From Bacillota bacterium (GTDB lineage: Bacteria > Bacillota > Dethiobacteria > DTU022): DNA of 64,000 nucleotides. The notes beneath the pieces are model-generated. The model was not told the DNA's origin, ran no database searches, and was given only the letters and a program-made list of their open reading frames with translations. Positions 5,748-63,734 of the stretch are shown in pieces. The translations under genes were made by a program, and so were the position numbers. How positions within the stretch are numbered: position 1 is the stretch's first letter; each line of letters begins with the position of its first letter. The DNA is taken from positions 45,094 through 109,093 of the forward strand of contig JAXHVH010000003.1 of the NCBI GenBank assembly GCA_034189085.1, read 5' to 3'.

Positions 5748-5863
5748 TAGGCTTGACAACAGCTGCTCTTTTATCAACCGATGGCTGCTGTTTATAAAGT
5801 CTGTTATTCTATTTCTCAACCTGTAAGGTGCTTGCGGTATATTATTCCGGAGGAGGTGACCCG

Positions 5864-7084: not shown

Positions 7085-7509
7085 TGGTTAAACAAAAAAT
7101 TGTGCTTCGCTTCCCACCGAACGTAGTTGAACAGCCAATCATTTACATGATGATCAAAGATTTTGACCTGATGGTTAATATTTTACGTGCCGACATCAAT
7201 CCCCGCAAGGAAGGGCGCCTGATGATGGAGGTAAATGGTGAAAATGCCGATTATCAGAAGGCGATGGCCTGGCTGAAGGAGCAGGGGTTGATCATTACCA
7301 ACCTGGAACAACAGATAATCTGGCGGGAGGATCGTTGTACCCACTGCGGTGCCTGCACCGTGATCTGTCCTACAAGAGCGCTTTACTTCGAACGGCCGTC
7401 GATGAATGTTCGTTTTGACCAGGATAAATGCATAGTCTGCGAACTTTGCCTGCGGGCCTGTCCGGCCAGGGCGATGGAAACACCGATCGACAACACCCTC
7501 TTCAGATGA
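7084..7509 (+). CDS. NIL-domain 2x[4Fe-4S] ferredoxin (MA1822/MJ0099-like)
   Basis: N-terminal NIL domain (MVNILRADI) plus CTHCGACTVICP and CIVCELCLRACP; coupled to the DUF39 gene. Confidence 0.9.
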   Translation: MVKQKIVLRFPPNVVEQPIIYMMIKDFDLMVNILRADINPRKEGRLMMEVNGENADYQKAMAWLKEQGLIITNLEQQIIWREDRCTHCGACTVICPTRALYFERPSMNVRFDQDKCIVCELCLRACPARAMETPIDNTLFR

Positions 7510-9700: not shown

Positions 9701-11356
9701 ATGAAAGAAGAATTCAAAACATGCGATGTACTTGTAGTCGGCGGCGGAGTAGCAGGAATGATGGCTGCCATAAGGGCTGCAGAAGGAGGAGCCAAAGTTA
9801 TTGTTGCGGAAAAAGCGAACACTATTCGAAGTGGTTCTGCCATGATGGGAGTTGATCATTTCCGCAGTTATATACCAGAATACCACGGTGATTTTAGCGA
9901 ATTTAAAAAAGCGTTGGGAAAGGGCCAGGATGCTGCTTCTTTTGCAACGAAAAGCACCGAGTATCTGAAAACGGTATTTGAAAATTCGGCATTGCTGGTA
10001 AAAAAATGGGAAGAATGGGGTATCCCCATTAAATATCATGGGAAGTACCATTTTGCAGGGCACACGTTTCCGGGCGATGATCCCAAAATGGGCGGATGGC
10101 TTAAAATTTCTGGAATGAATATTAAGCCGGTTCTTACAGAGCAAAGCTTGAACCGTAGTGTGGAAATAGTAAATCGGGTGATGGTTTTTGACCTGCTGAA
10201 AAATAAAGATAATAAAGTGGTCGGGGCTATGGCTTTACACACGAGAGAAAATATAATGGTCATTTTTGAGGCTAATGCAGTTATTTTATCTACCGGTTGT
10301 GTAACAGGCCTGTATCCCAATCCTACTCGAGCAGGTTATTTCAACACCTGCTATCCTTTTTTACATTCCGGCGATGGAAGAATTATGGCTTATAGAGCGG
10401 GAGCTGAACTGGCAGATTTAGAATTGACCAGGCGTCACGCGGGGCCGAAATATTTAATCAAGGCCGGGCAAGCGTCATGGGTTGGGGTTTTAAGAGATCG
10501 CGAAGGCAACACGGTTGGACCCTTTCTGGATAAGCCTGATGCGCGTTATGGTGATATGACTGTCGAAGTTAATAAGGAGATTTTTGAGGAATACAGGAAC
10601 CAGGGTAAAGGTCCGATTTACATGGATATGAGTGGTATTACGGATAAAGATTATGAAGAGATGCTTCATTACTTAAGCAATCAATCCGGCACTGCCTTTT
10701 TGGAACACTTTAAACAAACGGGTGTCAATCTCAGGAATGCCGCTGTTGAATTTACCACTTTTGAACACGCTGTATCCAACGGGATCCAGTTCAATCACAG
10801 GGGTGAAACTGGAGTTAATGGTCTCTATGCCGCAGGGGATGAAAGCCGTGGAGGCCTTGGTTTGGCGGCAACCATTGGTTGGAAAACGGGAGAGCATGTA
10901 GCTGAATCTGTTAGATCAATCAGTTCACCAGGTATCAGTGGAGCGGAATCTCTAATTGATGATAGCATTAGACTGGTTAAAGATATAAGAACCCGGGAAG
11001 TGGGTGCCTGCTGGCAAGAAGCCTATGCTGTTCTTCAACAAATTACCAATGATTATTGCGGTTCTGTGCGTTCACAATCAATTTTGGAGGCAGGATTGGA
11101 TTTCCTTGAGAAAATGAAGATCCGGACCAGAGACACCCTAAAAGCAAATGATGCGCATGAGTTAATGTATTGTATGCAGGCTTTGAACTTAATGGATCTT
11201 GCTGAATTATTATTTGTTGCTGCGCTTGATAGAAAAGAGACGAGGGCGTTGCATAAACGGCCGGACTACCCACTGACAAATCCACTGTTAACCGGCAAGA
11301 AACATATTATCAAACAAAAGAATGGCACACCGGTTACAGAGTGGCGTAATGTATAA
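9701..11356 (+). CDS. FAD-dependent oxidoreductase, AprA-like (SDH/FRD/APS-reductase flavoprotein superfamily), copy 1
   Basis: DVLVVGGGVAG dinucleotide fold; EKANTIRSG resembles AprA EKAxxxRSG; GLYAAGD; C-terminal RKETRALHKRPDYP. Confidence 0.85.
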   Translation: MKEEFKTCDVLVVGGGVAGMMAAIRAAEGGAKVIVAEKANTIRSGSAMMGVDHFRSYIPEYHGDFSEFKKALGKGQDAASFATKSTEYLKTVFENSALLVKKWEEWGIPIKYHGKYHFAGHTFPGDDPKMGGWLKISGMNIKPVLTEQSLNRSVEIVNRVMVFDLLKNKDNKVVGAMALHTRENIMVIFEANAVILSTGCVTGLYPNPTRAGYFNTCYPFLHSGDGRIMAYRAGAELADLELTRRHAGPKYLIKAGQASWVGVLRDREGNTVGPFLDKPDARYGDMTVEVNKEIFEEYRNQGKGPIYMDMSGITDKDYEEMLHYLSNQSGTAFLEHFKQTGVNLRNAAVEFTTFEHAVSNGIQFNHRGETGVNGLYAAGDESRGGLGLAATIGWKTGEHVAESVRSISSPGISGAESLIDDSIRLVKDIRTREVGACWQEAYAVLQQITNDYCGSVRSQSILEAGLDFLEKMKIRTRDTLKANDAHELMYCMQALNLMDLAELLFVAALDRKETRALHKRPDYPLTNPLLTGKKHIIKQKNGTPVTEWRNV

Positions 11357-11408
11357 AGAGAAAAATACTGATAATCAGGGTGTTAAAGGTTAGGAGGAGA
11401 TGTTTGTT

Positions 11409-11636
11409 ATGCCCCCGGTTATTAATACTAAATTATGTGATGGTTGTACAGGCAGGGAATACCAGATTTGTGTTGAGCACTGTCCATTTGATGTTTTTAA
11501 AAGTACGGAGATAGGGAAGCCGCCGTTAATTGCCAGGCCAAATGAATGCTGGTATGAGAATGCCTGTGTAATGGATTGTCCAAAGAGGGCCATAAATTTA
11601 CGGATCCCTTTACCAATGCATATCGTGGTGAAATAA
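11409..11636 (+). CDS. AprB-like ferredoxin, copy 1
   Basis: MPPVINTKLCDGCTGREYQICVEHCP mirrors AprB CDGCxxxxxTACxxxCP; second motif CWYENACVMDCP; SD AGGAGG favours ATG 11409 over 11400. Confidence 0.85.
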   Translation: MPPVINTKLCDGCTGREYQICVEHCPFDVFKSTEIGKPPLIARPNECWYENACVMDCPKRAINLRIPLPMHIVVK

Positions 11637-11878
11637 CGCTTCTCGAAAAATTAACGACCCGGTTATGGCTTCATTCTTTTTGGGCAAGAAGTTATATGAA
11701 AATCATTTTTCTTCACCGCCTGATAAGGAGCTGTAACTAGAGTCGCGACTTGGAAGGCTGATTATGCGCATTATAACGAAGAGGGATTAGAAGGTAATCT
11801 ATGTAAGGAGGTGTTCATCACCCCGCTACAAGCAAAATTGCTTTATTATGCATCAAAAAACTTGAGGAGGTATTTATT

Positions 11879-12919
11879 ATGAAGAAACGATTTTTGCTAA
11901 CATCCCTAATCCTTATTGTAGTTGCTGTGTTTGTGTTTACTTTAGGATGTGGGGGGACTGAAGAAAGTGTGGAAGAACCTGCAGAGGAATCTGCAGAAGA
12001 ATCTGCAGAAGAATCTTCCGAAGAGGTTACAGAAGAAGCAGGGGTTGACTTCCCGGAATCAGGCAGGGAGATACTCCAGTTGTGCCCGTTTGGTGCCGGC
12101 GGCGGTTTTGATACAACAGCACGCTATTTTGCGCAGCACCTTACAGAGGACCTGGGAGTTCCGGTAATCACGGAGAATAGAACTGGATCCGGTGGAATTA
12201 TCCCGTTGCTGGACATGCAGAAAACAGAACCGGATGGTTACACCCTGACATTTGTAGCCAGGGCTACTCACCCGCCGCAGCAAGCACTTCATGGTGCAGA
12301 TATTAGATTGGAAGATCTTACCTACATCGCTGGTGTCAAAGAAATTCCATATGTTTTATGTGTAAGTAAAGATTCAGATATTGAGACGTTAGATGATTTA
12401 AAAAATAAAGATTCCGTTGTTTTAGGCACCTCCGGTTCAGGGCATATCAGTGAAATAAGTGCTCATCAACTGGCCGACACTTTTGGCTTTGAGCTAAAGA
12501 AAATACCTTATGATGGGTTAGCTGCAGTAGGTGCCGCCATATTGTCCGGTGAAGTTGATATGGCTTTCTTAAGCGGGACTATCATTGAATCGCATAAAGA
12601 CAATTTAAGACTCCTGGCCATATTCACAGAGGAAAGATCAGATTACTTTGATGTCCCCACCATTGGAGAGCTGGGATATGATTTGTTTTTACCTGTTGAA
12701 ACAATGGGTTATGTCGGACCTCCAGGCATGGATGATGAAGTAGTGGAAATCCTGAGAAGCGCCTTAGAAAATGTCGTCAACAAAGAAGAAACACAGGAGT
12801 GGGCAGCAAGTTTAAAAGAAATAGTTAAGTATATCCCACCGGAGGAAGTGAAGGCGAGCAACCTGGAAGTTATAGAAATTTGTACTGAATATAAAGACTT
12901 GTTAATGGGAAGCGAATAA
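11879..12919 (+). CDS. tctC: Tripartite tricarboxylate transporter substrate-binding protein (TctC/Bug family), lipoprotein
   Basis: PFGAGGGFDTTAR, ENRTGSGG, DGYTL, PYDG motifs; lipobox LGC followed by acidic linker. Confidence 0.88.
   Translation: MKKRFLLTSLILIVVAVFVFTLGCGGTEESVEEPAEESAEESAEESSEEVTEEAGVDFPESGREILQLCPFGAGGGFDTTARYFAQHLTEDLGVPVITENRTGSGGIIPLLDMQKTEPDGYTLTFVARATHPPQQALHGADIRLEDLTYIAGVKEIPYVLCVSKDSDIETLDDLKNKDSVVLGTSGSGHISEISAHQLADTFGFELKKIPYDGLAAVGAAILSGEVDMAFLSGTIIESHKDNLRLLAIFTEERSDYFDVPTIGELGYDLFLPVETMGYVGPPGMDDEVVEILRSALENVVNKEETQEWAASLKEIVKYIPPEEVKASNLEVIEICTEYKDLLMGSE
11981..12016 (+). repeat. Three tandem copies of a 12-nt unit (GCAGARGAATCT, encoding AEES)
   Basis: gcagaggaatct gcagaagaatct gcagaagaatct in the TctC linker. 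Confidence 0.85.
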
Positions 12920-12945
12920 ACTAACCACAGGTTGCTGAACAAGTA

Positions 12946-13020
12946 AAATAGAGGGAATAATGAATACAGCATGAGACAGCCATTCAGCACATATAGAACA
13001 ATCCATTGTTCCCTCTATTT
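12946..13020 (+). other. Long-loop intergenic inverted repeat after tctC
   Basis: AAATAGAGGGAATAATG pairs with CATTGTTCCCTCTATTT (17 bp, one G-U pair). Confidence 0.6.
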
Positions 13021-13282
13021 CTTAAATATTTTATTGAAATATCTATTGCCGGTTGGGATTTCTTACCTGTTTTGCTGATCTAAATAAAGAGAATTGATTA
13101 TCGTGTAAACAGGGGGAAGGGTGAAAGATACATCCCCGGCGTTTAATTTTTGATATGAGCCTGGGCAGCGGGCGAATATTGTTTTACTGGATTGCTTGGC
13201 AGCTACATTATAACTGTCATGGGGAGAAAAGCTTTAAATTATTATTGTATTGCACATATCCTTTACCAAAGGAGAATGTAAT

Positions 13283-13747
13283 TTGACAAAGCAAAATATT
13301 CTGGGTGAATTAATTTTAAAATTAATATTGTTAATTTATGGTTTATATTATTTTATCGAGACAATAACCATGGACATATCCTATAATGCCAGGATATATC
13401 CCTTTATCATCAGCCTGGCTTTTAATATTTTAATGATCATGTTAACCTCGGAGGTATTCAAAAAATATTTGGAACAAGCGAAAAACGACAGGCAATCCTT
13501 CAAAATTATTACTCCGGAAGCAATAAAACTATTCAGTACTTATGCAGCAGGAATCTTATTAATAGCTTTAACATTACTGGTCAATTATTGGCTTGCCATT
13601 ATTGTCGCGTTGCCTCTATTGGCATATGTCTTGGAAGACAAGAAGTTTTCGCTTATTTCCTATGTGTTTCTTCCCGTGGGGATGATCATAATAGTCTATA
13701 TTATTTTTGTCAGGTTTTTAAGTGTAAGGTTGCCAGTTGGGTTCTAA
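13283..13747 (+). CDS. tctB: Tripartite tricarboxylate transporter small membrane subunit (TctB family)
   Basis: Four hydrophobic helices, ARIYP motif, C-terminal FVRFLSVRLPVG; between tctC and tctA; TTG 13283 after AAGGAG. Confidence 0.78.
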   Translation: MTKQNILGELILKLILLIYGLYYFIETITMDISYNARIYPFIISLAFNILMIMLTSEVFKKYLEQAKNDRQSFKIITPEAIKLFSTYAAGILLIALTLLVNYWLAIIVALPLLAYVLEDKKFSLISYVFLPVGMIIIVYIIFVRFLSVRLPVGF

Positions 13748-13835
13748 AGGATTTACCAGTATTTCTGGCATGAGTATGATTATATAAAAAGCTAAAGATT
13801 GTCATACATTTAATATGAAAGGAAATTTATGCCAT

Positions 13836-15308
13836 ATGGAGTATATCGAAGTAGGGATTTTTCTCTGGGTTGTCGTTGGACTGTTAATCGGTATTTTGGT
13901 TGGGGTTTTGCCCGGTTTGGGCGCCGCCACCGCTTTATCCCTCCTTGTGCCCCTGACCTACAAAATGGATACAAATATCGCTATCGCTTTTATTATGGGC
14001 GTTTTTGTAGGGGCAGTATATGGCAGTTCAATTACTTCTATTTTATTGAATATTCCGGGATCGGCAACATCTGTAGCCACGATGTTTGATGGGTATCCCT
14101 TAACGGTTAAAGGTTATTCTTTGACAGCACTTGGTGCATCGATTACCTCTTCTTCAATAGGTGGGATAGCCGGAGCTTTATTTCTGATGTTTGTTAGCCG
14201 CTACATTGCCAATTTTTTTATGCATAACATGGATTCACCGTCTTATTTTTGGATCATTATGATTGCCCTTTCCTGTCTTATTACAGCTATAGGGAAAGAT
14301 CGTACCATTGGGTTTGCATCAGCTTTGTTCGGGCTGATGGTTGGCACGATCGGGATGGATATGATGTCCTTTAATTATCGATATAATTTTGGCAGTTTTT
14401 ACATGGGTGATGGTATACCTATGGTTCCTTTAATATTGGGAATCTACGCATTATCCCATATCATGACATTATCCCAAAGAGAAGTGGGCGAATCCATATC
14501 GAAAAGCGTGCAAATGCATGGCAGTTTATGGGAAGGGGCCAAGCAAACTCTTATTAATTGGGTCCTGGTCATAAGATCCATTATTATTGGTGCAGTAATC
14601 GGTGTCTTCCCGGGGATAGGAGGGGCCACTGCTAATTTAGTTGCTTACTATAATGCTAAAAGCAAATATAACCAGGATGATACATTTGGTAAAGGTGATA
14701 TTCGGGGTGTAATTGCTGCTGAAGCATGCAATAATGCAACGGTGGCATCAACTTTAGTCCCAACATTTACACTGGGAATTCCGGGTGGAATCCCAGCGGC
14801 GATTCTTTTAAGTATACTTATGATTCACGGGTTGACGCCCGGGCCTACTTTGTTTACTGAGAATGTAGATTTTGTTAATCAGACCTTTGTAACTGTTTTA
14901 ATTGCCAATCTTATACTGTTCCCCATTGCTATTTTAACCCTCAGATTCTTTGCCAGAATCACGACGGTGAAAATAAGCATCTTGGTACCATTCCTATTGG
15001 TTTTTGTTGTTTATGGAGTTTATGGGCTGCAGCGGTCCCTTTATGATGTGATCATAGTATTTGTTTTTGGGTTGATCGGTTATTTATTTAATAAATACAA
15101 TATACCAATTGTCCCATTTCTCATATCTTATCTGTTAGGCCCTATGTTTGAAGTAAGTTTGAGGAGATCATTAAGAGCTGGCGATGATATTTTCATCCTG
15201 GTATCAAAGCCTTTTCACATTGTTCTGGCCATCATAGCCCTTTTGCTTATTGTTGGGCCGCCACTTTACAATTTATTTGTTAAAAAACCGTTAATAAAGC
15301 AAGCTTGA
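13836..15308 (+). CDS. tctA: Tripartite tricarboxylate transporter large membrane subunit (TctA family)
   Basis: GVLPGLG, NIPGSATSVATMFDGYP, AAEACNNA, PTFTLGIPG, HGLTPGP motifs. Confidence 0.93.
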   Translation: MEYIEVGIFLWVVVGLLIGILVGVLPGLGAATALSLLVPLTYKMDTNIAIAFIMGVFVGAVYGSSITSILLNIPGSATSVATMFDGYPLTVKGYSLTALGASITSSSIGGIAGALFLMFVSRYIANFFMHNMDSPSYFWIIMIALSCLITAIGKDRTIGFASALFGLMVGTIGMDMMSFNYRYNFGSFYMGDGIPMVPLILGIYALSHIMTLSQREVGESISKSVQMHGSLWEGAKQTLINWVLVIRSIIIGAVIGVFPGIGGATANLVAYYNAKSKYNQDDTFGKGDIRGVIAAEACNNATVASTLVPTFTLGIPGGIPAAILLSILMIHGLTPGPTLFTENVDFVNQTFVTVLIANLILFPIAILTLRFFARITTVKISILVPFLLVFVVYGVYGLQRSLYDVIIVFVFGLIGYLFNKYNIPIVPFLISYLLGPMFEVSLRRSLRAGDDIFILVSKPFHIVLAIIALLLIVGPPLYNLFVKKPLIKQA

Positions 15309-15367
15309 AATTGTGATAATGGATGGCCAGCCACAATACTAAACAGGACTGGGAGGTTAATATCATA

Positions 15368-16066
15368 TTGAGAAAAAATATTGAACTTGTCAATAAACTT
15401 GTCCAGTCGTGCCATATACTCTCAATGGAGGGGCACAATGATATTATTCTGGGCCATGTAAGCGCGCGTATTCCCGAATCGGAAAGTGCGTTAATTAAAT
15501 CAAGCGGGAAAGCCCTGTGGGAAGTTACACCAGATGATGTTATCGCTATTGACTTCGAGGGCACTATAATCGACGGAAATAAAAAGTGTCATAAAGAATA
15601 CCCGATTCATACAGAAGTATACCGTCTCCGGGATGAAATCAATTGTGTTATTCATACTCATCCTTTTTATAGTACCATCATTTCTGCTGCTGGCATAAGC
15701 ATTAAGCCGGTTAGTAACGAAGGAACCATTTTTTTAGACACGCCAATATTTACAGATACTACAGAGTTAATCCAAACTTCTGAACAAGGTGTAGCAGTGG
15801 CAAAGAAGATGGGGAATAATTATGCGCTGCTGTTGCAAAATCATGGGATAGTTGTGGCGGGGAGAACTATAGAGGAGGCCACAATTTTTGCTGTAAGGTT
15901 AGAAAAGGCAGCCAGGGCACAGTATTTCATAGAAGCGCTTGGATCCTACAACTACACCAATGAAGATGAATGCAAGAGAAAAATTGAGCAAACATATGAT
16001 CACAAGCAGATCCAGAATTTTTGGGATTATTATTTAAGAAAATTAAATACCGGGAGATTCACTTAA
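15368..16066 (+). CDS. Class II aldolase/adducin family protein (aldolase, epimerase or decarboxylase)
   Basis: GHVSARIP, E-x-PIH, VIHTHP, LLQNHG metal ligands; TTG 15368 after GGGAGG (ORF track start 15323). Confidence 0.88.
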   Translation: MRKNIELVNKLVQSCHILSMEGHNDIILGHVSARIPESESALIKSSGKALWEVTPDDVIAIDFEGTIIDGNKKCHKEYPIHTEVYRLRDEINCVIHTHPFYSTIISAAGISIKPVSNEGTIFLDTPIFTDTTELIQTSEQGVAVAKKMGNNYALLLQNHGIVVAGRTIEEATIFAVRLEKAARAQYFIEALGSYNYTNEDECKRKIEQTYDHKQIQNFWDYYLRKLNTGRFT

Positions 16067-16218
16067 GATGAGTGATTTCCGTTACTCGATGAATCCAATT
16101 GTTATTATGATAGGCATAAAATAAATGGCGCAGGGTAGACTTTGTCAAATCCAAAGAGGTCAGGATTGGTAATATTCTAGAATTACGCATTAATATTTTA
16201 AATAAAGGATGGTATTTA

Positions 16219-16323
16219 ATGGATAAGCCAAGGTTTTCAATGGAAGAAGATTATTTTGCATGTTTACTATCAGCAATTATAGTTATTCTTTGCATGATTG
16301 GAATTTTCCCAAGTTTACCCTAA
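16219..16323 (+). CDS. Small membrane peptide, 34 aa (MDKPRFSMEEDYFACLLSAIIVILCMIGIFPSLP), absent from the ORF track
   Basis: SD-like AAAGGATGG upstream, single hydrophobic helix, 59 nt before the YeiH gene. Confidence 0.55.
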   Translation: MDKPRFSMEEDYFACLLSAIIVILCMIGIFPSLP

Positions 16324-16382
16324 ATTAAATATTTCTATATTGGCAGTTGCTAATTTATGGAGTTAGACAAGGAGATGCAGCT

Positions 16383-17429
16383 ATGGCGAAATTACCTCCA
16401 CAGAAATACAATAGTTGGTCACAGTATTTTTTAAACATACTGCCGGGTTTCTTGCTGGCACTGGTGGGAGCTGTTTTCGTTTGGTCCCTGGTAAGCGTGA
16501 CGCCGCCGAGCTGGCCGGTTAATTATGTCCTTTATTCTATAGTCCTGGGGATGGTTTTGAGGAACGTTGTAAAACTTCCTGTTATTTTTAAGGAAGGCCT
16601 GGGATTTTCAGCTAAGATTCTCTTATTCATGGGTGTTATATTTTTAGGTGGGACAATAGATATTTCAGTTATTATTGCTACCGGTCCACATGCTATAATC
16701 CTTGCAATTATAGCGGTCACTTCAATGATTACACTTTCTTATGTGTTGGGCAGGTTTATTGGACTGCCGGAAGATTCTAAAGCACTGCTGGGCATTGGAA
16801 TGGGCGTATGCGGAGTATCAGCAATTGTTGCGTTAACCCCGGTTATCAAGGCTAAAGAAAGATACATATTAACTGCGATTGTTGCTTCTTTGTTAAACAG
16901 TGTCATCCTTCTTTTTACAATTCCTATCCTGGTTCACTGGATTTCTATGCCAGAGTTACTGGCTGGCTATTGGAGCGGGGCAATATCATCCAACACAGCG
17001 CAGGCAATTGCTACCGGCTTTGCTATTGGTGAAGAAGCAGGAACAATAGCAACGATCACCAAAACAGCTCGTAATGCTTTAATGGCATTTGCCATCCTTT
17101 ATTTTGCCTATTCATACACACGAAAAGGATTACCCATTGGAGTGAAGCTGCGACCTTTATTGATCTGGGAAAAATTCCCTAAATTTATTTTTGGCTTGAT
17201 AATTATGTCACTATTATCGACATTTGGTTTGTTCACAGCGGAAGTGATGGCACAGTTTAAAGATCTTTCGCGGTGGTTTTTTATGATCTGTTTTGTGGGA
17301 ATGGGTTATGAAATTAGTTTTCGTGATTTTAAATTAAATGATTTTAAACCTGTTTTATTTGGTCTATTTTTATCGCTGATTCTGGCAGTAGTTGCCTATC
17401 TTTATATTAATCTGTTTATTCATGTATAG
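16383..17429 (+). CDS. YeiH / putative sulfate exporter (PSE, UPF0324) family membrane protein
   Basis: GMGVCGVSAIVA, TITKTARNAL, FPKFIFG motifs; ~10 TM helices; ATG 16383 after AAGGAG; ends in TAG. Confidence 0.85.
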   Translation: MAKLPPQKYNSWSQYFLNILPGFLLALVGAVFVWSLVSVTPPSWPVNYVLYSIVLGMVLRNVVKLPVIFKEGLGFSAKILLFMGVIFLGGTIDISVIIATGPHAIILAIIAVTSMITLSYVLGRFIGLPEDSKALLGIGMGVCGVSAIVALTPVIKAKERYILTAIVASLLNSVILLFTIPILVHWISMPELLAGYWSGAISSNTAQAIATGFAIGEEAGTIATITKTARNALMAFAILYFAYSYTRKGLPIGVKLRPLLIWEKFPKFIFGLIIMSLLSTFGLFTAEVMAQFKDLSRWFFMICFVGMGYEISFRDFKLNDFKPVLFGLFLSLILAVVAYLYINLFIHV

Positions 17430-17563
17430 CAGCATCAAGGATTGAGGCTACGCTAACAAAATTCATGAAGTATAGACGTAGATTATCTGATACTTACTCA
17501 TTTTTACTGCCGGGCGGGTTTTTACAAACCGGGTAATGCCAGCAAACCATGCAATCAGTCGAT

Positions 17564-17611
17564 TATTGAATTGTGTTATAACTGGTATTACTTTTTGCAA
17601 AAAGGATTGTT
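17564..17611 (+). promoter_or_regulatory. Promoter/operator repeat copy 2, upstream of flavoprotein module 2
   Basis: 41/48 nt identical to 9364-9411; TTGAAT-17bp-TACTTT plus TTTTTGCAAAAA. Confidence 0.65.
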
Positions 17612-17722
17612 GTTTATTTTTTAGAAGTAAATATCAGTTTAAACGAAAGTCCCAAAATAGGCAAAGATACAAAATTGATAAATATAGTACTCAAATATAT
17701 AAATCAGCAGGAGGTTTGTGCA

Positions 17723-17935
17723 ATGATTAAAGAGATTGATCATTCTGGATGTATCAAGTGCGGATTATGTGCCAAATTTTGCCCCGGCAATGTTATCTCA
17801 ATGAATCCATCAGATGGATTGCCTTATATAGAGCACCCTGATGATTGCTGGAATTGTTTCAATTGTGAGCTTATCTGCCCGGTTAATGTCATTTATGTAG
17901 GGCCCTACAGGAAAGAAAAGCCTCTGGCATGGTAA
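17723..17935 (+). CDS. 2x[4Fe-4S] ferredoxin, AprB-like, copy 2
   Basis: CIKCGLCAKFCP and CWNCFNCELICP; ATG 17723 after GGAGG. Confidence 0.9.
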   Translation: MIKEIDHSGCIKCGLCAKFCPGNVISMNPSDGLPYIEHPDDCWNCFNCELICPVNVIYVGPYRKEKPLAW

Positions 17936-17985
17936 GCAAAAAACTATGGATAATAAATAATTACATAAAACGGAGGAACCAATAA

Positions 17986-19671
17986 ATGAATGAACAAGAA
18001 ACCATTGTCAGGAATAATGAATTCATAACCCATATCAGTGACGTACTGGTAATTGGGGGGGGTTTCTCGGGATTATGGGCTGCTCTGAAAGTTAAGGAAA
18101 ATAATGATCTTTCAGTGAATTTGGTCGATAAAGGGTTTTGTGGATCCACCAGCCATTCATTTTTTTCAGGAGGTGGAATGGTTGTTTTAATGCCGGATGA
18201 TGACCTGGATGAATGGGTGGAAGACATAGCAAATTCGAATGAAGGCATAGCAGACAGGAAAGTTTTAAGATCAATCCTGGAGAATTCACAGGCCAGGATG
18301 AGAGATTACGAAACAATGGGAGTTACTTTCCCACGGAGGGATGGTGAGTACAAACGCATCCGTTCCCGTGGTGCAAAAAAGATAAAGCTGCTTGGTTCTG
18401 CTGAGGGTGGAGGTAAAGCAATAGTTTTAGCTCTTCACAAAGAAGCGTTAAAACGGGGAATAAACATAAAGAACAGGATATTTATTATTGACATACTGGT
18501 AAATGAGCAAGGGCAGGCAGGAGGAGCCCTCGGTATAGATATCAATGATGGCAGTTTTCATGTTTTCAGAGCAAAGGCAACGGTAATAGCCACAAATAGT
18601 GGCAGTTTCAGGGGGCACCATTTAGCCAGTGATCAGCAGGGCACCGGGGTATTTGCTGCTTTTAATAAAGGAGCAAAGCTTCAGAACGCTGAATTCCACT
18701 ACATCAATGTCCGTCCGAATAAGTTTGAAATTGAAGGATCTGGAGTATTGCCTAAATTTGGCGCTCGCTGGGCCAATGCGGATGGGGAGTATTTTATGGA
18801 TAAATATGACCCCGATCTTAAAGATCATGCCCCGAATCATACTATACTGGTTGCAATGGCCAAGGAGGCCAAAGCTGGAAAAGCCCCTTTAGGGTTTGAT
18901 ACACCATCTTTTGCTGAAGAAGGGCGTGTCGGTTTTCGTGAAATGATGATGGGGCACGGATGGATGAAGCTTATTTATAACAAGCTAAGAAATGAAGGCG
19001 TGGATTTTTTACGGGACAAGATTGAGTGGAATGCTGCTTACGAAACAAACAGGGTTGGCCTGAAGACGGATTTTGGTGGAAAAGCCTCAGGTATTGAAGG
19101 TTTATTTGCCGCCGGTATGGCTCGCGCGTTTATCCCGAATACTTTAACCGGCTTGTCCATTGCTTATAGCACCTGGTCCGGATATATGGCTGGAGAAACT
19201 GTTGCTAAATACGTCAATGATGTGGAAATGCCTGAAATCGATATGCAGCAGATTCTTTCAGCGCAGGATAGTTTTGTAGAACCGCTCTACAGGGCGGGAG
19301 ACACAACACCGGACAAAGTCGTTGAGGAGTTACAAAAGGTTATTTTCCCTGCTGACGTACTGATTTTAATCACTCATGATAAATTACAGGATGCTCTTAA
19401 TAATGTTGAAAATATCAGGGATAATATTGAAAGTAAAATGGCTGCCAGCAGCATCCATGATCTGATTAAAGTTAGAGAAACCGAAACCATGATTCTATCT
19501 GCAGAGATGACCTTACGAGCCTCCATGCTGCGCAAAGAATCAAGGCCCTTTATTTATTACAGGGAAGATTACAATGAAAGAGATGATCAGAATTGGTTAC
19601 AATGGATAGTTGTTAAAAAGGACGAAAGTGGCTTTTCATTCAGCACTGAAAAAATTCCCAATGATGGTTAG
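17986..19671 (+). CDS. FAD-dependent oxidoreductase, AprA-like, copy 2
   Basis: DVLVIGGGFSG, GLFAAG; C-terminal RKESRPFIYYREDY...DDQNW resembles AprA RxESRxPGxYYRxDY...W; ends in TAG. Confidence 0.83.
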   Translation: MNEQETIVRNNEFITHISDVLVIGGGFSGLWAALKVKENNDLSVNLVDKGFCGSTSHSFFSGGGMVVLMPDDDLDEWVEDIANSNEGIADRKVLRSILENSQARMRDYETMGVTFPRRDGEYKRIRSRGAKKIKLLGSAEGGGKAIVLALHKEALKRGINIKNRIFIIDILVNEQGQAGGALGIDINDGSFHVFRAKATVIATNSGSFRGHHLASDQQGTGVFAAFNKGAKLQNAEFHYINVRPNKFEIEGSGVLPKFGARWANADGEYFMDKYDPDLKDHAPNHTILVAMAKEAKAGKAPLGFDTPSFAEEGRVGFREMMMGHGWMKLIYNKLRNEGVDFLRDKIEWNAAYETNRVGLKTDFGGKASGIEGLFAAGMARAFIPNTLTGLSIAYSTWSGYMAGETVAKYVNDVEMPEIDMQQILSAQDSFVEPLYRAGDTTPDKVVEELQKVIFPADVLILITHDKLQDALNNVENIRDNIESKMAASSIHDLIKVRETETMILSAEMTLRASMLRKESRPFIYYREDYNERDDQNWLQWIVVKKDESGFSFSTEKIPNDG

Positions 19672-19776: not shown

Positions 19777-20016
19777 AGTAAACCCTTATTTGTAATAAGG
19801 GTTTTTCCCCTTATACGGGTTGGGTACCAGGGGTCACAGGTTTATGATAATAAGTGACCACCATCCGACATTTTGGAATGTTATTTGGCTAAAAATTGCT
19901 TTTTAAAAGCCATATTTCATTGAAAATAGTGTATTTGCAGCTTTTTTATTCTATAATATTATAAATGGCATTTGGAGAGGTGTGCATTGATAAAAAAGTA
20001 AAGGGGTTGTCGTCCA

Positions 20017-21411
20017 GTGGAAAAGCACTTTACCAGGATGGGAGACGGGTCGGGCATCTACATGAGCAAGGAAGAGATTCGTGCCGACCTGGCAGATGGA
20101 ACAACCGATGCCGCCGACCGGGGTAAAATTCCTCCCCTCTCTGCGGAGGAGCTGGATTATCTTTATGAAATAGTAGCAACACCGGTCAATATCGTCAGTG
20201 TTGCCCGGGGCAAGGAAACTGTTACTTCTTCAGATTCAGGGGCGTTTAAAATCAATTACCAGGCCGATATCTCCCTTGATCGGGCTATTTCGATCCAGGT
20301 GCATGAAAAGGTTCTCGCCGCTGATTCGCTTGACCTGGGGAACATCGACTACAGCTACAAGTCGGTCAAGGCTATTCTCCATGATGAAGCCAAAGTTATG
20401 GAAAATGTCCAGATGAATACGATCATGCCGGTGCTCTATGGAGCCATGCCAAATCTGGGCTTGTATACAAAGCCTGACGGCCCGGTTGACAACTGGTCTG
20501 AACTGCTTCCCAGGGCAAAGATTGCTGAAGCGAGACAGGCACAGGAAGAAGCTGTCGAGCTGGCGGTCAAAGATATGGTTTACATAGCCGAAGGAATGTA
20601 TAAGGCTGGAGCGGACGGGATGAATTTTGATACCTGCGGTGCTTCGGGAGATGCTGATTTTCTGGCTGCTCTTGAAGCGGTAAAAATAATCAGGGGAAAA
20701 TATCCGGGCTTCGGCATGGAAATGGGAATGGCCGGAGAATTCATTCTTGGTATGCACGGGCAGCTGGAGTACGAAGGTACCAGGCTGGCTGGTTTATACC
20801 CTCATAAACAGGTTAAAATAGCCGAGCAAGCAGGGGTAACCATTTTCGGGCCGGTTGTTAATACCAGCAGCAATCGCTCGTTTCCCTGGAACCTGGCCCG
20901 CGCTGTTACGTTTGTCAAAGCGTGCTGTGAAGCAGCCGATATAGCGGTCCATGTTAATGTGGGTATGGGAGTAGGAGCTACCCCCATGACACCCGTTCCG
21001 CCGGCTGATGCTGTCTCCAGGGCTTCCAAGGCTTTGATTGAAATCGGCAAGGCCGACGGTTTATAGGTGGGTTCCGGTGATCCTTTCGGCAATGAAGCGA
21101 CTCAGGAAGTGGCTTCCGGGATGGGTGGCATTCGCACAGCCGGAGATCTGGTCATGAGAATGCAGTTGTCCCGGGGTTTAAAAATAGAAGCGGCCAAAAA
21201 ATATGTCGCTGAAAAATTGGGCGTTGCAATGGCGGAGCTGAGTGATTGTTCAGTCATGCGTGAAGTAAGGCAGAACCTGGGGCTGGGCTATCCCATGCCT
21301 GATCCGGGAGCAGCCAAAGGCATCGGGGCCAAGATTCGGATAGCCGAAATCATGGGCCTAAAAATAAACTCCGTTGAACAGTTCAAGAAGAAAACGGGAC
21401 TGCATTATTAA
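20017..21411 (+). CDS. mtbB: Dimethylamine:corrinoid methyltransferase with in-frame amber (pyrrolysine) codon at 21064-21066
   Basis: TRMGDG, YGAMPNLGLY, NFDTCGASGD, GMAGEFILGMHG, WNLARAVTF, then KADGL-TAG-VGSGDP, matching MtbB GVDGI-O-IGVGDP; the joined frame gives 464 aa. Confidence 0.95.
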
Positions 21412-21432: not shown

Positions 21433-22917
21433 ATGAAGAGGAACCCCATAGCCGGAAGAAACTCTTTTATGGGCTGCGGTCTGAATCTATTCAGCGATTC
21501 AGATCTGGAGATGATTCATGACGCTACGCTGGAGGTGCTGGAATACGCCGGCCTCTATGTCCAGAGCGATGAGGCAATGGATATTTTTGACGGGGGAGGC
21601 TGTATAGTAGACAAGAAAGAGAAAAATGTAAAAATACCCGCCCACATCGTCGAAGAGGCTATCACTTCGGCACCGAAGAAAATATTCCTTGCCGGACGGG
21701 ATCCAAAGCATGATCTGGTCCTTGAAAACGGACGGGTCAACTTTTGTCCTTTCGGTGAAGGCGTAATGGTAATCGATCCCTACAGTGGTGAATACCGCAA
21801 GTCAACCAAGGCTGATAAGGGAAATGTGGCCAGGCTGGTTGACGCTCTGGATCAGTACGACATGCTGGAGAACACTGTGGCGCCGCGCGATGTTCACCCG
21901 GAAATGGAAAGCCTGCATAACTATGAAGTAACTGTCTCCAATACTACGAAACACGTCCCTCAGCCCTGTCATGACAGGCGCTCCGCCCAGCTGCTCATCG
22001 AAATGGCGGCAGCTGTGGCCGGAGGGAAGGAAAACCTTAAAGATAGGCCCATCGTTTCCGGGTGTACCTGTCCCCAGAGCCCCCTGACTATTTCTGCAGG
22101 GTGCGGCGAGCCGATTATCGAATATGCCCGGGCTAATCTGCCCCAGAATATTCTTTCCATGGCCATGGCCGGGGCTACATCGCCGGTCACCCTGGCGGGG
22201 ACGCTGGTAACCCATAACGCAGAGGTACTCGGGGGCATTGTTCTGGCCCAGTTGACCAGGAAGGGCGCGCCGGTGATGTACGGCAGTTCAACGACTATGA
22301 TTGATATGAGACAGGCGACGGCTACGGTCGGCTGCCCCGAGCTGGGATTAATAAGTGCCGCTGTGGCCATACTGGCCCGTTACTATCTGCTGCCCAGCTA
22401 TGTTGCCGGTACTTAGGGCGATAGCAAGGTTTCAGATGCTCAGTCCGGCCATGAAAAAACCCTGACTTCCCTGCTGCCGGCATTGGCAGGTGCCAATATG
22501 ATCTACGGCGGGGGGATGCTGGAGATGGGTTTGACCATGAGCTTTGGACAACTGGTTATGGATAATGAGATCATTGCTATGACCAGGAAAGTTCTTGAGG
22601 GGATCCCGGTTAACGACGAGTCTCTAGCGGTTGATGTAATTAAAAACGTGGGTGCCCGGGGTCACTTCCTGGCTGAAGAGCATACCTACAGGCACATGCG
22701 AGAGCTTTCGGAAAGCAGGTTAATCGATCGCCGGATGCGGCAATTCTGGACTGACAGCGGATCCAAAGATCTTACCCGGACCTGTGATGAAAAGGCAAGA
22801 GAAATATTGGAAAATCACCGCCCGGAACCGCTGCCTGACCAGGTTCATAAAAAGATTTTGTCAATTATCAGGGAAAGGGAAGAAGAACTGGGCATAAAAT
22901 CCCCGGCTAATGAATAA
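21433..22917 (+). CDS. mttB: Trimethylamine:corrinoid methyltransferase with in-frame amber (pyrrolysine) codon at 22414-22416
   Basis: MAMAGATSPVTLAGTLVTHNAEVL, GAPVMYGSSTT, LPSYVAGT-TAG-GDSKVSDAQSGHEKTLT...AGANMIYGGGMLE; reads through into the ORF-track fragment 22483-22917. Confidence 0.95.
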
Positions 22918-22941: not shown

Positions 22942-23613
22942 ATGCCTGAACTTACTTTCCTTGGGCATGCAGCTTTCCGGTTAGGGGAAGAAGGAAGGGA
23001 AACCCTGCTTTTCGATCCCTATATTACCGGTAATCCTCAGGCCCCTCTGAAGTTTGAAGAAGTCGGGGCGGATTACATTTTAGTTTCCCATGCTCATTTT
23101 GACCATCTGGGCGATACATATGAAATTGCCGAAAGGGAAGAAGCGACTATCATATCAACGGCCGAAATTGCCGGTCAGGCAGGTGAAAAAGGGCTGACTG
23201 CCCATGGCCAGCATCTGGGAGGAAGACATCGATTCCAATTTGGTTCGGTCAAACTGACCCTTGCTTTTCACGGCTCGGGGATACCCGGCGGGCATGCCTG
23301 TGGATTTGTTGTCGACTATTACGGAAAGAAAATATATTTTGCCGGCGACACTGCGCTTTTCAGTGATATGAAGTTAATTGGGGAGCTTGATTCTCTCGAC
23401 CTGGCTCTTCTGCCCATAGGAGATAATTACACCATGGGTATCGATGATGCCGTTATGGCTGCTTCTTACCTGCAGGCCGGAGAGGTTATCCCGTATCATT
23501 ACAATACCTGGCCCCTCATTAAAGTAGATCCAGAAGAATTCAAGAAGAAGGTGGAAGATAAAACCGGCAGTAAATGTATTGTCCTTTCACCGGGAGAACA
23601 TCACATCTTCTAA
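22942..23613 (+). CDS. UPF0173 metal-dependent hydrolase (metallo-beta-lactamase fold)
   Basis: FLGHAAF, DPYITGNP, SHAHFDH, YFAGDT, LPIGDNYTMG, PYHYNTWP. Confidence 0.9.
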   Translation: MPELTFLGHAAFRLGEEGRETLLFDPYITGNPQAPLKFEEVGADYILVSHAHFDHLGDTYEIAEREEATIISTAEIAGQAGEKGLTAHGQHLGGRHRFQFGSVKLTLAFHGSGIPGGHACGFVVDYYGKKIYFAGDTALFSDMKLIGELDSLDLALLPIGDNYTMGIDDAVMAASYLQAGEVIPYHYNTWPLIKVDPEEFKKKVEDKTGSKCIVLSPGEHHIF

Positions 23614-26677: not shown

Positions 26678-26786
26678 CTCTTATCCAGAGCGGAGGAGGG
26701 ACAGCCCCGATGAATCCCGGCAACCGGATTTGCTGATCACGGTGCCAATTGCTGCGGGGTGGACTCTTTTCCCTGGGAGATGAGAG
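26678..26786 (+). ncRNA. SAM-I (S-box) riboswitch
   Basis: CTCTTATCCAGAG...GAGGGACAGCCCCGATGAA...GGCAACC...GGTGCCAATT...GAGATGAGAG consensus upstream of metK. Confidence 0.93.
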
Positions 26787-63730: not shown

Positions 63731-63734
63731 CTGA

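What the first reader, a model, noticed from the sequence alone, without database searches (positions are those of the whole stretch)
20017..21411. Bacterial dimethylamine methyltransferase MtbB with an in-frame amber codon: genetic-code expansion with pyrrolysine
Seen: ORF-track pieces 20017-21066 and 21067-21411 are in the same frame, separated only by TAG (21064-21066), in the context KADGL*VGSGDP. Known: methanogen MtbB has pyrrolysine at exactly this position (GVDGI-O-IGVGDP), and Pyl is catalytically required. Inference: this bacterium decodes UAG as Pyl and demethylates dimethylamine; standard annotation would call it a broken gene.
Basis: partly seen in the sequence, partly recalled or inferred. 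Interest (0 to 1): 0.88.

Follow-up and report, generated by a model that had tools for sequence, protein, structure and literature searches.

The report
Bacterial pyrrolysine-type dimethylamine methyltransferase gene
This is a real dimethylamine methyltransferase gene (mtbB) in an uncultured Bacillota bacterium, read through an in-frame UAG that almost certainly encodes pyrrolysine, next to a trimethylamine methyltransferase gene with the same feature; this kind of gene has been known in bacteria since 2007.

Summary
Frame 20017-21411 (+) holds one in-frame TAG (21064-21066, KADGL*VGSGDP).

- **Family:** read across the TAG, the protein is a full-length MtbB (Pfam PF09505, 608 bits; NCBIfam equivalog TIGR02368, 487 against a cut-off of 369).
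- **Conservation:** TAG sits at this codon in 26 of 26 related loci, down to 52% protein identity. A conserved frame of 112-115 codons follows. dN/dS after the TAG (0.11) matches that before it (0.09).
- **Second case:** the next gene, mttB (21433-22917), has its own conserved in-frame TAG (22414-22416; TIGR02369, 730 against 525).
- **Not a pseudogene, split gene or assembly error.**

The 64-kb window holds no pylT, pylS or pylBCD, no corrinoid protein and no MT2 gene. I could not reach the rest of this genome, so Pyl decoding is inferred, not shown. One related MAG with an mtbB(TAG) orthologue does carry a complete pyl cluster on another contig.

TAG also ends 10 of 51 ordinary genes here, so UAG is ambiguous, as in known Pyl bacteria. 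The Rfam "PYLIS" hits reflect coding conservation, not RNA structure.

Pyl-type bacterial MtbB was described in 2007, and public data hold thousands of homologues. Verdict: interpretation supported, a new member of a known kind, modest interest.

The parts
19934..19962 (+). Sigma-70-like promoter candidate (TTTGCA-17-TATTAT) about 55 nt upstream of the mtbB start. This is a consensus match only.
   Evidence: No sigma-54 -24/-12 element lies upstream.
20017..21411 (+). mtbB, a dimethylamine:corrinoid protein Co-methyltransferase of 464 codons. It starts at GTG and ends at TAA, with one in-frame UAG read as pyrrolysine at codon 350.
   Evidence: PF09505, 608 bits; TIGR02368, 487 > 369.
21064..21066 (+). 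In-frame TAG, the predicted pyrrolysine codon of MtbB.
   Evidence: TAG is kept in 26/26 related loci. It aligns to position 1 of Rfam RF02509. The frame after it is under purifying selection.
21064..21163 (+). Rfam PYLIS_2 (mtbB) match. It confirms the register with mtbB genes; RNA structure is not supported.
   Evidence: 49.1 bits; most modelled pairs are not formed; covariation term -0.53; z = -2.0.
21433..22917 (+). mttB, a trimethylamine:corrinoid protein Co-methyltransferase. It starts at ATG behind the RBS GAAGGTGG, 21 nt after mtbB, and has its own in-frame UAG.
   Evidence: gene call in L001; TIGR02369, 730 > 525.
22414..22416 (+). In-frame TAG, the predicted pyrrolysine codon of MttB (YVAGT-TAG-GDSKV).
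   Evidence: Conserved in all orthologues, whereas non-Pyl MttB paralogues have Ala or Gly codons there. It aligns to position 1 of Rfam RF02510, 81 bits.
22942..23613 (+). Metallo-beta-lactamase-fold hydrolase (PRK00685 type), 24 nt after mttB. It is probably co-transcribed; its role in the pathway is unknown.
   Evidence: Its position after mttB is conserved in L002, L003, L006 and L012.

Best explanation
Window 20017-21411 encodes a functional pyrrolysine-type dimethylamine:corrinoid methyltransferase (MtbB). It forms an operon with a pyrrolysine-type trimethylamine methyltransferase (MttB, 21433-22917), and probably with an MBL-fold hydrolase.

In both genes the ribosome reads one UAG as pyrrolysine. 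This needs a tRNA-Pyl(CUA) charged by a split bacterial PylSn/PylSc synthetase, with Pyl made from lysine by PylBCD. All of these must be encoded elsewhere in the genome (inferred).

By analogy with the characterised methanogen enzymes, the Pyl side chain in the centre of a TIM-barrel-like fold binds and activates the methylamine. One methyl group then passes to the Co(I) of a corrinoid protein, and an MT2 enzyme passes it on to tetrahydrofolate in bacteria. The corrinoid protein, MT2 and the reductive activase are also encoded outside the window.

UAG remains an ordinary stop for about a fifth of the genes. Decoding is therefore ambiguous and is most likely limited by conditional expression of the pyl genes, as in Acetohalobium arabaticum.

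- **Shown:** gene identity, position and conservation of the UAG, selection on the downstream frame, and absence of the partner genes from the window.
- **Inferred:** Pyl insertion, the substrate, and the methyl acceptor.
For: **Family membership**
- Pfam PF09505 matches full length across the TAG.
- The protein exceeds the NCBIfam equivalog cut-offs for MtbB and MttB.

**The stop position is shared**
- Of 2,659 homologue clusters (E <= 1e-10), nearly all of the best 120 listed end at 349-352 aa, the same stop position.

**DNA-level conservation**
- TAG is kept at this codon in 26/26 loci, from 93% down to 52% protein identity.
- It is always followed by a conserved open frame of 112-115 codons.

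**Selection**
- Against the two nearest MAGs (dS about 0.41-0.45), mtbB dN/dS is 0.09 before the TAG and 0.11 after it.
- For mttB the values are 0.03-0.04 before and 0.11-0.15 after.

**Register with the Rfam models**
- The UAG aligns to position 1 of the Rfam mtbB and mttB models.
- The consensus after UAG translates to O-IGVGDP....

**Second Pyl gene**
- A second, independent Pyl-site TAG lies in the adjacent mttB.
- Non-Pyl MttB paralogues carry Ala or Gly codons at that site.

**Pyl machinery in a relative**
- MAG GCA_040776805.1 has an mtbB(TAG) orthologue on contig 1 (L016).
- On contig 2 (L037) it has a complete pylSc-pylD-pylT(CUA)-pylB-pylC-MT2-pylSn cluster, with all five proteins above NCBIfam cut-offs.

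**Literature**
- Bacterial Pyl-MtbB and Pyl-MttB co-occur with pyl genes (PMC1976440; PMC8318568).
- A. arabaticum expands its code only on TMA (PMC3941956).

**Fold**
- A model of a 68%-identical homologue matches only (beta/alpha)8 barrels, including methyltransferases.
Against: - **No partner genes in the window.** The 64 kb hold no pylT, pylS or pylBCD and no corrinoid protein, MT2 or activase gene. The 10-kb flanks of the related mtbB loci also lack pylT and pylS.
- **The rest of the genome was out of reach.** The genome is not among the reference species, and its own PylS could not be singled out among more than 4,600 PylSc-like clusters.
- **TAG is still a common stop.** It ends 10 of 51 ordinary genes, including V-ATPase B, GAPDH, HPF, RF2 and FtsE, so unregulated suppression would be costly.
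- **No supported cis element.** No conserved RNA structure is supported after the UAG.
- **The structural model is weak.** Mean pLDDT is 65, and the part after the Pyl site is below 50.
- **No experimental data.** There is no protein or activity evidence.
Confidence: 0.85

Rival explanations
1. The gene is a pseudogene. A nonsense mutation broke a former mtbB, and only a truncated, inactive 349-aa product, or none, is made.
For: An in-frame stop is what a nonsense mutation looks like. No pyl genes lie in the window. TAG is a normal stop for 10 of 51 genes here.
Against: The stop is TAG, at the same codon, in 26/26 relatives. The 114 codons after it have no further stop or frameshift, and dN/dS there is 0.11, equal to the upstream part. 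The adjacent mttB shows the same pattern at its own known Pyl site. The family's curated model spans the site.
Confidence: 0.03
2. The pyl machinery was lost very recently in this particular genome. The two genes would be still-intact relics that now terminate at UAG.
For: The genome outside the window was not seen. A natural homologue that replaced TAG by TTG (Leu) exists (P0002), so lineages do leave the Pyl state.
Against: Purifying selection has acted over the whole divergence from the nearest MAGs (dS about 0.41-0.45). Both genes are perfectly intact. Synteny and both TAGs are retained throughout the clade.
Confidence: 0.06
3. The two pieces are made separately. Translation ends at TAG and restarts at the GTG that follows (21067), giving a two-subunit enzyme without pyrrolysine.
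For: In the window, a GTG follows the TAG directly, and ORF finders list 21067-21411 as an ORF.
Against: The codon after TAG is a canonical start (GTG) in only 6 of 26 relatives; the others have GTA (10), ATT (8) or ATA (2). In mttB the codon after TAG is GGC. No RBS lies upstream of 21067. The missing residue is the catalytic one in this family.
Confidence: 0.02
4. UAG is read by a suppressor tRNA carrying a canonical amino acid, or TAG is reassigned genome-wide, and pyrrolysine is not involved.
For: One gene caller translated a homologue's TAG as Gln (P0063). A Leu-codon variant of the family exists.
Against: TAG ends about 20% of the genes, and the sequence after those stops shows no long open frame (0-50 codons). 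On the coding strand only the two methyltransferase TAGs have long open frames on both sides. The only tRNA in the window is tRNA-Thr. P0063's Gln is an artefact of the caller's genetic code; the DNA has TAG. The site is the family's Pyl site.
Confidence: 0.03

Closest known systems
Methanosarcina barkeri MtbB1-3 (archaeal dimethylamine:corrinoid methyltransferases; Paul, Ferguson & Krzycki 2000, as cited in PMC8318568)
   Same: It belongs to the same family (TIGR02368 equivalog, PF09505). It has a single in-frame UAG at the same aligned position and a conserved motif after it: O-(I/V)G(V/S)GDP ... GIR(A/T)AGDLV.
   Different: The host is a bacterium (tmRNA, SmpB, RF2 frameshift, sigma-54). 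The methyl acceptor downstream must be tetrahydrofolate via an MT2, not coenzyme M. No mtbC corrinoid gene is adjacent. TAG is a frequent stop here (about 20%); Pyl archaea use it at 11% or less (PMC3941956).
mtbB-mttB locus of a draft genome (GCA_000620305.1, contig JHVU01000018.1; my guess, unverified, is D. alkalitolerans) and of Desulfitibacter sp. BRH_c19
   Same: These are the closest named or draft-genome relatives, about 82% MtbB identity. They share the adjacent mtbB(TAG)-mttB(TAG) pair, with no corrinoid gene between the two.
   Different: There the pair is preceded by a non-Pyl MttB paralogue and a divergent sigma-54 activator. In the window it follows a ferredoxin/FAD-oxidoreductase pair and precedes MBL hydrolase-...-metK-recD2, with no sigma-54 promoter.
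Pyl-MtbB and Pyl-MttB of the Olavius algarvensis delta1 symbiont and of marine Deltaproteobacteria (PMC1976440; PMC8318568)
   Same: These are bacterial MtbB and MttB with an in-frame UAG. They set the precedent that bacteria carry Pyl-type dimethylamine methyltransferases.
   Different: They belong to a different phylum. In those genomes, pylT, pylSn, pylSc and pylBCD were found in the same bin, and several of these genes were clustered. Here that could not be examined.
Acetohalobium arabaticum conditional genetic-code expansion (Prat et al. 2012, as described in PMC3941956)
   Same: It is a Bacillota bacterium in which UAG is both a stop and a Pyl codon, with Pyl decoding switched on by the substrate. 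This is the likely model for how a genome with many TAG stops tolerates suppression.
   Different: Regulation in the window's organism is untested.
Non-Pyl members of the MttB superfamily (e.g. glycine betaine methyltransferase MtgB; Ticak 2014, as cited in PMC8318568)
   Same: They share the superfamily fold and corrinoid-dependent methyl transfer. Such paralogues lie next to mtbB in several relatives.
   Different: They have Ala or Gly codons at the Pyl position and use quaternary amines. The window's MttB has TAG and passes the Pyl-type equivalog model.

Membership tests
MtbB, dimethylamine:corrinoid protein Co-methyltransferase (PF09505 / TIGR02368) | Full-length match to the curated family model above its cut-off | tested here: met
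   PF09505: 608 bits, profile positions 7-463 of 463, in one stretch across the TAG. TIGR02368 equivalog: 487.4 bits against a cut-off of 369.1.
MtbB, dimethylamine:corrinoid protein Co-methyltransferase (PF09505 / TIGR02368) | Single in-frame UAG at the family's pyrrolysine position | tested here: met
   TAG at 21064-21066 aligns to position 1 of Rfam RF02509, whose consensus continues O-IGVGDP. TAG is at the same codon in 26/26 related loci.
MtbB, dimethylamine:corrinoid protein Co-methyltransferase (PF09505 / TIGR02368) | The reading frame after the UAG is translated (open, conserved, under purifying selection) | tested here: met
   An open frame of 112-115 codons follows in every locus where the sequence extends to the end of the frame. 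dN/dS is 0.11 after the TAG against 0.09 before it.
MtbB, dimethylamine:corrinoid protein Co-methyltransferase (PF09505 / TIGR02368) | Cognate corrinoid protein (MtbC-like) encoded with it | tested here: not met
   tblastn with two corrinoid proteins finds none in the window. It is present beside mtbB in more distant relatives (L016-18, L020, L024, L025, L032) but absent in the window's own clade. This is a typical gene-context feature, not a defining one, and the partner may be encoded elsewhere.
MtbB, dimethylamine:corrinoid protein Co-methyltransferase (PF09505 / TIGR02368) | Dimethylamine-dependent methylation of Co(I)-corrinoid protein | not testable with these tools
   This needs an enzyme assay.
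MttB, Pyl-type trimethylamine methyltransferase (PF06253 / TIGR02369) | Match above the equivalog cut-off, with UAG at the Pyl position | tested here: met
   TIGR02369: 729.9 bits against 525. TAG at 22414-22416 aligns to position 1 of RF02510, 81 bits. It is conserved in orthologues, while non-Pyl paralogues have Ala or Gly codons.
Pyrrolysine decoding system (pylT, pylSn/pylSc, pylBCD) | tRNA-Pyl (CUA) gene in the genome | tested here: inconclusive
   None is in the 64-kb window or in the flanks of the mtbB loci fetched by then (L001-L024). ARAGORN does detect bacterial pylT in positive controls L037 and L038.
Pyrrolysine decoding system (pylT, pylSn/pylSc, pylBCD) | PylS and PylBCD genes in the genome | tested here: inconclusive
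   tblastn with verified bacterial PylSc, PylSn, PylB, PylC and PylD finds nothing in the window. The genome-wide test was impossible. In a related MAG, the cluster lies on a different contig from mtbB.
Pyrrolysine decoding system (pylT, pylSn/pylSc, pylBCD) | Pyl residue in the mature protein | not testable with these tools
   This needs mass spectrometry.
PYLIS cis-element (Rfam RF02509 / RF02510) | Conserved stem-loop after the UAG, supported by covariation | tested here: not met
   The hits exceed the gathering scores. However, most modelled pairs are non-canonical in the window. The RNAalifold covariation term is only -0.53 kcal/mol, with many broken pairs. The single-sequence fold has z = -2.0. 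Variation is concentrated at third codon positions.

The most novel reading that the evidence does not exclude
In this clade of uncultured Bacillota (relatives come from what I take to be soda-lake, serpentinite and clay-rock samples), the mtbB-mttB-MBL operon sits in a housekeeping region. It has no corrinoid, MT2, activase or pyl genes nearby, while UAG still ends about 20% of genes, essential ones included.

The most novel reading not excluded has two parts:
- Pyl insertion is conditional and effectively gene-specific, with no conserved RNA element, so it would rely on a still unknown regulatory or context mechanism.
- Both methyltransferases share one corrinoid protein encoded elsewhere. 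That would make these bacteria a methylamine sink competing with methylotrophic methanogens.
Probability: 0.3. Interest if true: 0.4.

Novelty: new member of a known kind. Interest (0 to 1): 0.25.

Why it matters
**Annotation.** Generic gene callers split both genes into fragments: nearly all public homologue calls stop at 349-352 aa. Recognising the read-through restores two complete enzymes.

**Metabolism.** The restored genes predict that this uncultured Bacillota lineage demethylates di- and trimethylamine. This bears on methylamine turnover, and on competition with methylotrophic methanogens, in anoxic and probably alkaline habitats.

**Coding.** The window is another example of a bacterium where UAG is both a frequent stop and a sense codon.

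None of this is new in kind, because the phenomenon, the family models and close relatives are already public.

Tried and rejected
1. **Finding the window's genome.**
   - An exact look-up of the MBL protein found nothing.
   - The MtbB fragment is on record only on a 12-kb Logan contig.
   - The single genome-contig scan showed that the genome is not a reference species. The best hits are MAGs at 92-93%.
2. **Finding this lineage's pyl genes.**
   - I used the M. mazei PylRS catalytic domain, recalled from memory and verified against PDB 2q7e. It returned only Methanosarcina hits.
   - An exhaustive search of cluster representatives gave bacterial PylSc seeds.
   - A profile search then returned more than 4,600 clusters with flat scores. 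None could be assigned to the window's clade.
   - Two speculative look-ups gave complete pyl clusters. One (L037) is from the same MAG as the mtbB locus L016 (62% identity), which is only a proxy; the other (L038) is from a JGI metagenome contig.
3. **pyl genes near paralogous mtbB copies** in Desulfitibacter sp. BRH_c19, contig JHVU01000018.1 and CP085524: none within 10 kb.
4. **A PYLIS RNA structure:** not supported.
5. **A sigma-54 promoter upstream of mtbB** (relatives have a sigma-54 activator next to the pair): none.
6. **The base after TAG as a discriminator:** both Pyl sites have G there, but so do 3 of 10 true TAG stops.
7. **Structure prediction.**
   - A model of the Leu-variant homologue reached only mean pLDDT 65.
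   - It gave generic TIM-barrel matches.
   - No MtbB relative is found in the PDB by sequence.
8. **Literature on Pyl in Desulfitibacter, Dethiobacter or Contubernalis:** nothing found. Prat et al. 2012 is not held.
Full report
**1. The observation**

On the + strand, a GTG at 20017 opens a frame that ends at TAA 21409-21411. An AAAGGGG lies 9-15 nt upstream of the GTG. The frame has a single in-frame TAG at 21064-21066, in the context ...EIGKADGL-TAG-VGSGDPFGNE.... The ORF list shows the two same-frame pieces 20017-21066 and 21067-21411. An independent public assembly of the same sequence (a 12-kb Logan contig from run SRR24907504, L001) carries the same TAG, so it is not an assembly error of the window.

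**2. What the gene is**

Read across the TAG, the 464-residue product matches Pfam PF09505 (Dimeth_Pyl). The match is one uninterrupted stretch over profile positions 7-463 of 463, at 608 bits. It also exceeds the NCBIfam equivalog cut-off for [dimethylamine--corrinoid protein] Co-methyltransferase (TIGR02368, 487.4 against 369.1).

Rfam's mtbB 'PYLIS_2' model starts at the UAG, and it aligns its position 1 to 21064. The model consensus after the UAG translates to O-IGVGDPMGMPISH...GIRAAGDLVARM. The window has O-VGSGDPFGNEATQ...GIRTAGDLVMRM.

**3. A second case next door**

Twenty-one bases after mtbB, a gene starts at ATG 21433 behind the RBS GAAGGTGG; the gene call in L001 uses the same start. 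It encodes an MttB (PF06253) with its own in-frame TAG at 22414-22416 (YVAGT-TAG-GDSKV). Read through, it scores 729.9 bits against the Pyl-type trimethylamine methyltransferase equivalog TIGR02369 (cut-off 525). Rfam PYLIS_3 aligns from the TAG at 81 bits.

A systematic scan shows that these two TAGs are the only ones on the coding strand with long open frames on both sides.

**4. Comparative evidence that the TAGs are read through**

- **Public gene calls.** Of 2,659 MtbB homologue clusters (E <= 1e-10), nearly all of the best 120 listed are called as 349-352 aa, so they stop at the same place.
- **DNA level.** All 26 related loci that cover the site have TAG at this codon, from 93% down to 52% protein identity. 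They include Bacillota, a Desulfobacteraceae MAG and a Thermoleophilia MAG. A conserved open frame of 112-115 codons follows wherever the sequence extends that far.
- **Selection on mtbB.** Against the two nearest MAGs (L002 and L003; dS about 0.41-0.45), dN/dS is 0.09 before the TAG and 0.11 after it.
- **Selection on mttB.** The values are 0.03-0.04 before the TAG and 0.11-0.15 after it.
- **Contrast with paralogues.** The mttB TAG is conserved in all orthologues, whereas non-Pyl MttB paralogues in the same loci carry Ala or Gly codons there.
- **No conserved restart codon.** The codon after the mtbB TAG is GTA (10 loci), ATT (8), GTG (6) or ATA (2). A restart codon is therefore not conserved, which argues against two separately translated pieces.

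These results rule out a pseudogene or a split gene for the lineage as a whole.

**5. What is not in the window**

- **RNA genes.** The only tRNA is tRNA-Thr. Rfam finds a tmRNA, a SAM riboswitch and the two PYLIS hits.
- **Protein-coding genes.** Pfam and NCBIfam annotation of about 50 genes shows an ordinary Bacillota chromosomal stretch:
  - V-type ATPase A/B/D and GAPDH;
  - a TctCBA transporter and two FAD flavoproteins;
  - metK behind a SAM riboswitch, RecD2 and HPF;
  - SecA, RF2, FtsEX and UvrABC;
  - RapZ, WhiA and RpoN;
  - pgk-tpi-eno, RNase R, SmpB and the tmRNA gene.
- **Pyl and partner genes.** tblastn probes found nothing in the window. The probes were verified bacterial PylSc, PylSn, PylB, PylC and PylD, a pterin-binding MT2 and two corrinoid proteins.
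- **Positive control.** ARAGORN does find tRNA-Pyl(CUA) in two bacterial pyl clusters, so the absence of pylT from the window is real.

**6. The genome-wide test could not be done**

The genome is not among the reference species. The nearest hits are an 'uncultured Syntrophomonadaceae' MAG (93%) and a 'Bacillota bacterium' MAG (92%).

I then tried to reach this lineage's PylS:
- I started from the M. mazei PylRS catalytic domain, recalled from memory and verified at 606 bits against PDB 2q7e.
- From it I reached bacterial PylSc representatives, including A. arabaticum, E. limosum, Desulfovibrio and a Firmicutes MAG.
- The profile search returned more than 4,600 PylSc-like clusters with flat scores. 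None could be assigned to the window's clade.

One look-up gave a useful proxy. PylSc P0459 lies on JAXGZS010000002.1, in the same MAG (GCA_040776805.1) as the mtbB(TAG) locus L016 on JAXGZS010000001.1. It sits in a cluster pylSc-pylD-pylT(CUA)-pylB-pylC-MT2-pylSn followed by a sigma-54 activator and an MttB gene. All five Pyl proteins exceed their NCBIfam cut-offs. So in a related Bacillota genome the Pyl machinery exists and is not linked to mtbB. That is the situation I infer for the window's genome.

**7. How UAG is used here**

Of 51 genes in the window, 26 end in TAA, 15 in TGA and 10 in TAG. The TAG-terminated genes include V-ATPase B, GAPDH, HPF, RF2 and FtsE, and the next in-frame stop follows 0-50 codons later. 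UAG is therefore ambiguous, not reassigned.

This use is higher than in Pyl archaea, where it is 11% or less (PMC3941956). It fits the bacterial strategy of conditional Pyl expression described for A. arabaticum (same paper; also PMC8318568).

I found no sign of a cis-acting insertion element:
- The RNA after the mtbB UAG folds only modestly better than shuffles (z = -2.0).
- The alignment of 17 relatives varies mainly at third codon positions.
- The covariation term is -0.53 kcal/mol.
- Most base pairs of the Rfam model are not formed.

The base after the UAG (G at both sites) does not separate Pyl sites from true stops.

**8. Gene context**

- **Operon.** mtbB, mttB and an MBL-fold hydrolase (22942-23613) are separated by 21 and 24 nt and are probably one operon.
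- **Promoter.** A sigma-70-like promoter match lies at 19934-19962.
- **Synteny.** The order mtbB-mttB-MBL-amidinotransferase(-)-ParA-like-PRTase-SAM riboswitch/metK-recD2 is colinear in the nearest MAGs (L002, L003, L006, L012). The pair is thus a stable chromosomal feature of this clade, and only the upstream side differs.
- **Desulfitibacter-type loci.** In Desulfitibacter sp. BRH_c19, and in draft genome GCA_000620305.1 (contig JHVU01000018.1; from memory I think this is D. alkalitolerans, unverified), the same pair follows a non-Pyl mttB and a divergent sigma-54 activator.
- **More distant relatives.** In the complete genome CP085524, a corrinoid protein gene sits between the two methyltransferase genes. 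Corrinoid genes also adjoin mtbB in the more distant loci L016-L018, L020, L024 and L032.

**9. Mechanism**

*Shown:* family membership, the Pyl-site UAG, and a translated C-terminal segment.

*Inferred from established knowledge of the methanogen enzymes and of bacterial methylamine and quaternary-amine pathways:*
- Pyl-tRNA(CUA) inserts pyrrolysine at codon 350.
- Pyl is thought to play the essential role in passing a methyl group from the methylamine to a corrinoid protein (PMC12626013). The detail that its ring binds and activates dimethylamine, with Co(I) as acceptor, is from my own knowledge.
- An MT2 then transfers the methyl group to tetrahydrofolate.

No MtbB-family structure is in the PDB by sequence. 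An AlphaFold model of the 68%-identical homologue P0002 has moderate confidence (mean pLDDT 65, pTM 0.69). Its post-Pyl part is poor because public homologues are truncated there. It matches only generic (beta/alpha)8 barrels, among them BHMT and an M. mazei methyltransferase. That is consistent with a TIM-barrel methyltransferase but adds nothing specific.

**10. Comparison with what is known, and novelty**

- Pyl-type MtbB and MttB in bacteria were reported in 2007 for the Olavius delta1 symbiont, together with pylT, pylSn, pylSc and pylBCD (PMC1976440).
- They were reported again for marine Deltaproteobacteria (PMC8318568).
- A 2024 review counts 204 split-type (PylSn+PylSc) PylRS sequences, the class I take to be bacterial (PMC11363022).
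- Curated equivalog models exist for both enzymes.
- Close relatives at about 82% identity are already in public databases, and some are named as dimethylamine methyltransferase.

The finding is therefore a correct recognition of a known phenomenon in a new, uncultured member.

**11. Verdict**

| Item | Result |
|---|---|
| Observation | confirmed |
| Interpretation | supported; the Pyl machinery itself is untested for this genome |
| Novelty | new member of a known kind |
| Interest | 0.25 |

Noticed in passing
window 21433-22917 (TAG at 22414-22416): The adjacent mttB also has a conserved in-frame TAG at the Pyl position (TIGR02369, 730 bits; Rfam PYLIS_3, 81 bits).
   Followed up: yes
L030 10001-11401 (GCA_016278615.1, JADQBM010000005.1): An MtbB homologue (P0002, 68% identical) has a true TTG (Leu) codon in place of the Pyl TAG. 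It stands alone, without mttB or a corrinoid gene. It was the only sense-codon variant among the best 120 homologues listed. It may be a non-Pyl MtbB with a changed function, or a relic.
   Followed up: partly
L034 1640-3046: Homologue P0063, called full length with Gln at the Pyl site, actually has TAG in the DNA (VDGF-TAG-VGVGDP). The Gln comes from a gene call made with a different genetic code. The upstream MttB call (494 aa) is probably read through in the same way.
   Followed up: yes
window, stop codons of 51 genes: TAG ends 10 of 51 genes (TAA 26, TGA 15), among them V-ATPase B, GAPDH, HPF, RF2 and FtsE. If tRNA-Pyl is active, these would gain extensions of 0-50 codons.
   Followed up: partly
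window 36420-37539 (CTT TGA at 36483): prfB (RF2) shows the classic programmed +1 frameshift: ...MRASL-CTT TGA, then the frame continues as FEYDAKLKEL.... The gene itself ends in TAG.
   Followed up: partly
window 26678-26786: A SAM riboswitch (Rfam RF00162, 79 bits) lies directly upstream of metK (S-adenosylmethionine synthetase).
   Followed up: no
window 63272-64000: smpB is followed by the tmRNA gene, which is cut by the window end (88 bits). This confirms a bacterial host.
   Followed up: no
L025 1-14900 (CP085524.1) and L032 10001-21050 (JGI contig carrying the second mtbB copy, P0055, named Desulfitibacter sp. BRH_c19): In these relatives, mtbB(TAG) plus a corrinoid protein gene lie among lysine-fermentation genes: lysine 5,6-aminomutase, Kce (BKACE) and CoA-transferase in both, plus a lysine 2,3-aminomutase-like radical SAM gene in L025 and a Kdd-like dehydrogenase in L032. 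The reason for this association is unknown.
   Followed up: no
L037 8001-13410 (JAXGZS010000002.1): This bacterial pyl cluster has an unusual order: pylSc-pylD-pylT-pylB-pylC-(pterin-binding MT2)-pylSn. pylT sits between pylD and pylB, and pylSn is at the far end. A sigma-54 activator and an MttB gene follow.
   Followed up: partly
window 9701-19671: Upstream of mtbB lie two Sdh/Frd/AprA-like FAD flavoproteins (9701-11356 and 17986-19671), a TctCBA tripartite transporter, a class II aldolase, a YeiH-type permease and a small 2x[4Fe-4S] ferredoxin. This block is not conserved upstream of mtbB in the nearest MAG, L002, and its function is unknown.
   Followed up: partly
window 5828-8252: A homologue of the 'methanogenesis marker 16 metalloprotein' (TIGR03287, below its cut-off) is followed by a ferredoxin-domain protein and a PRK04334-type hypothetical protein. 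These are archaeal-flavoured genes in a bacterium, near V-type ATPase genes.
   Followed up: no
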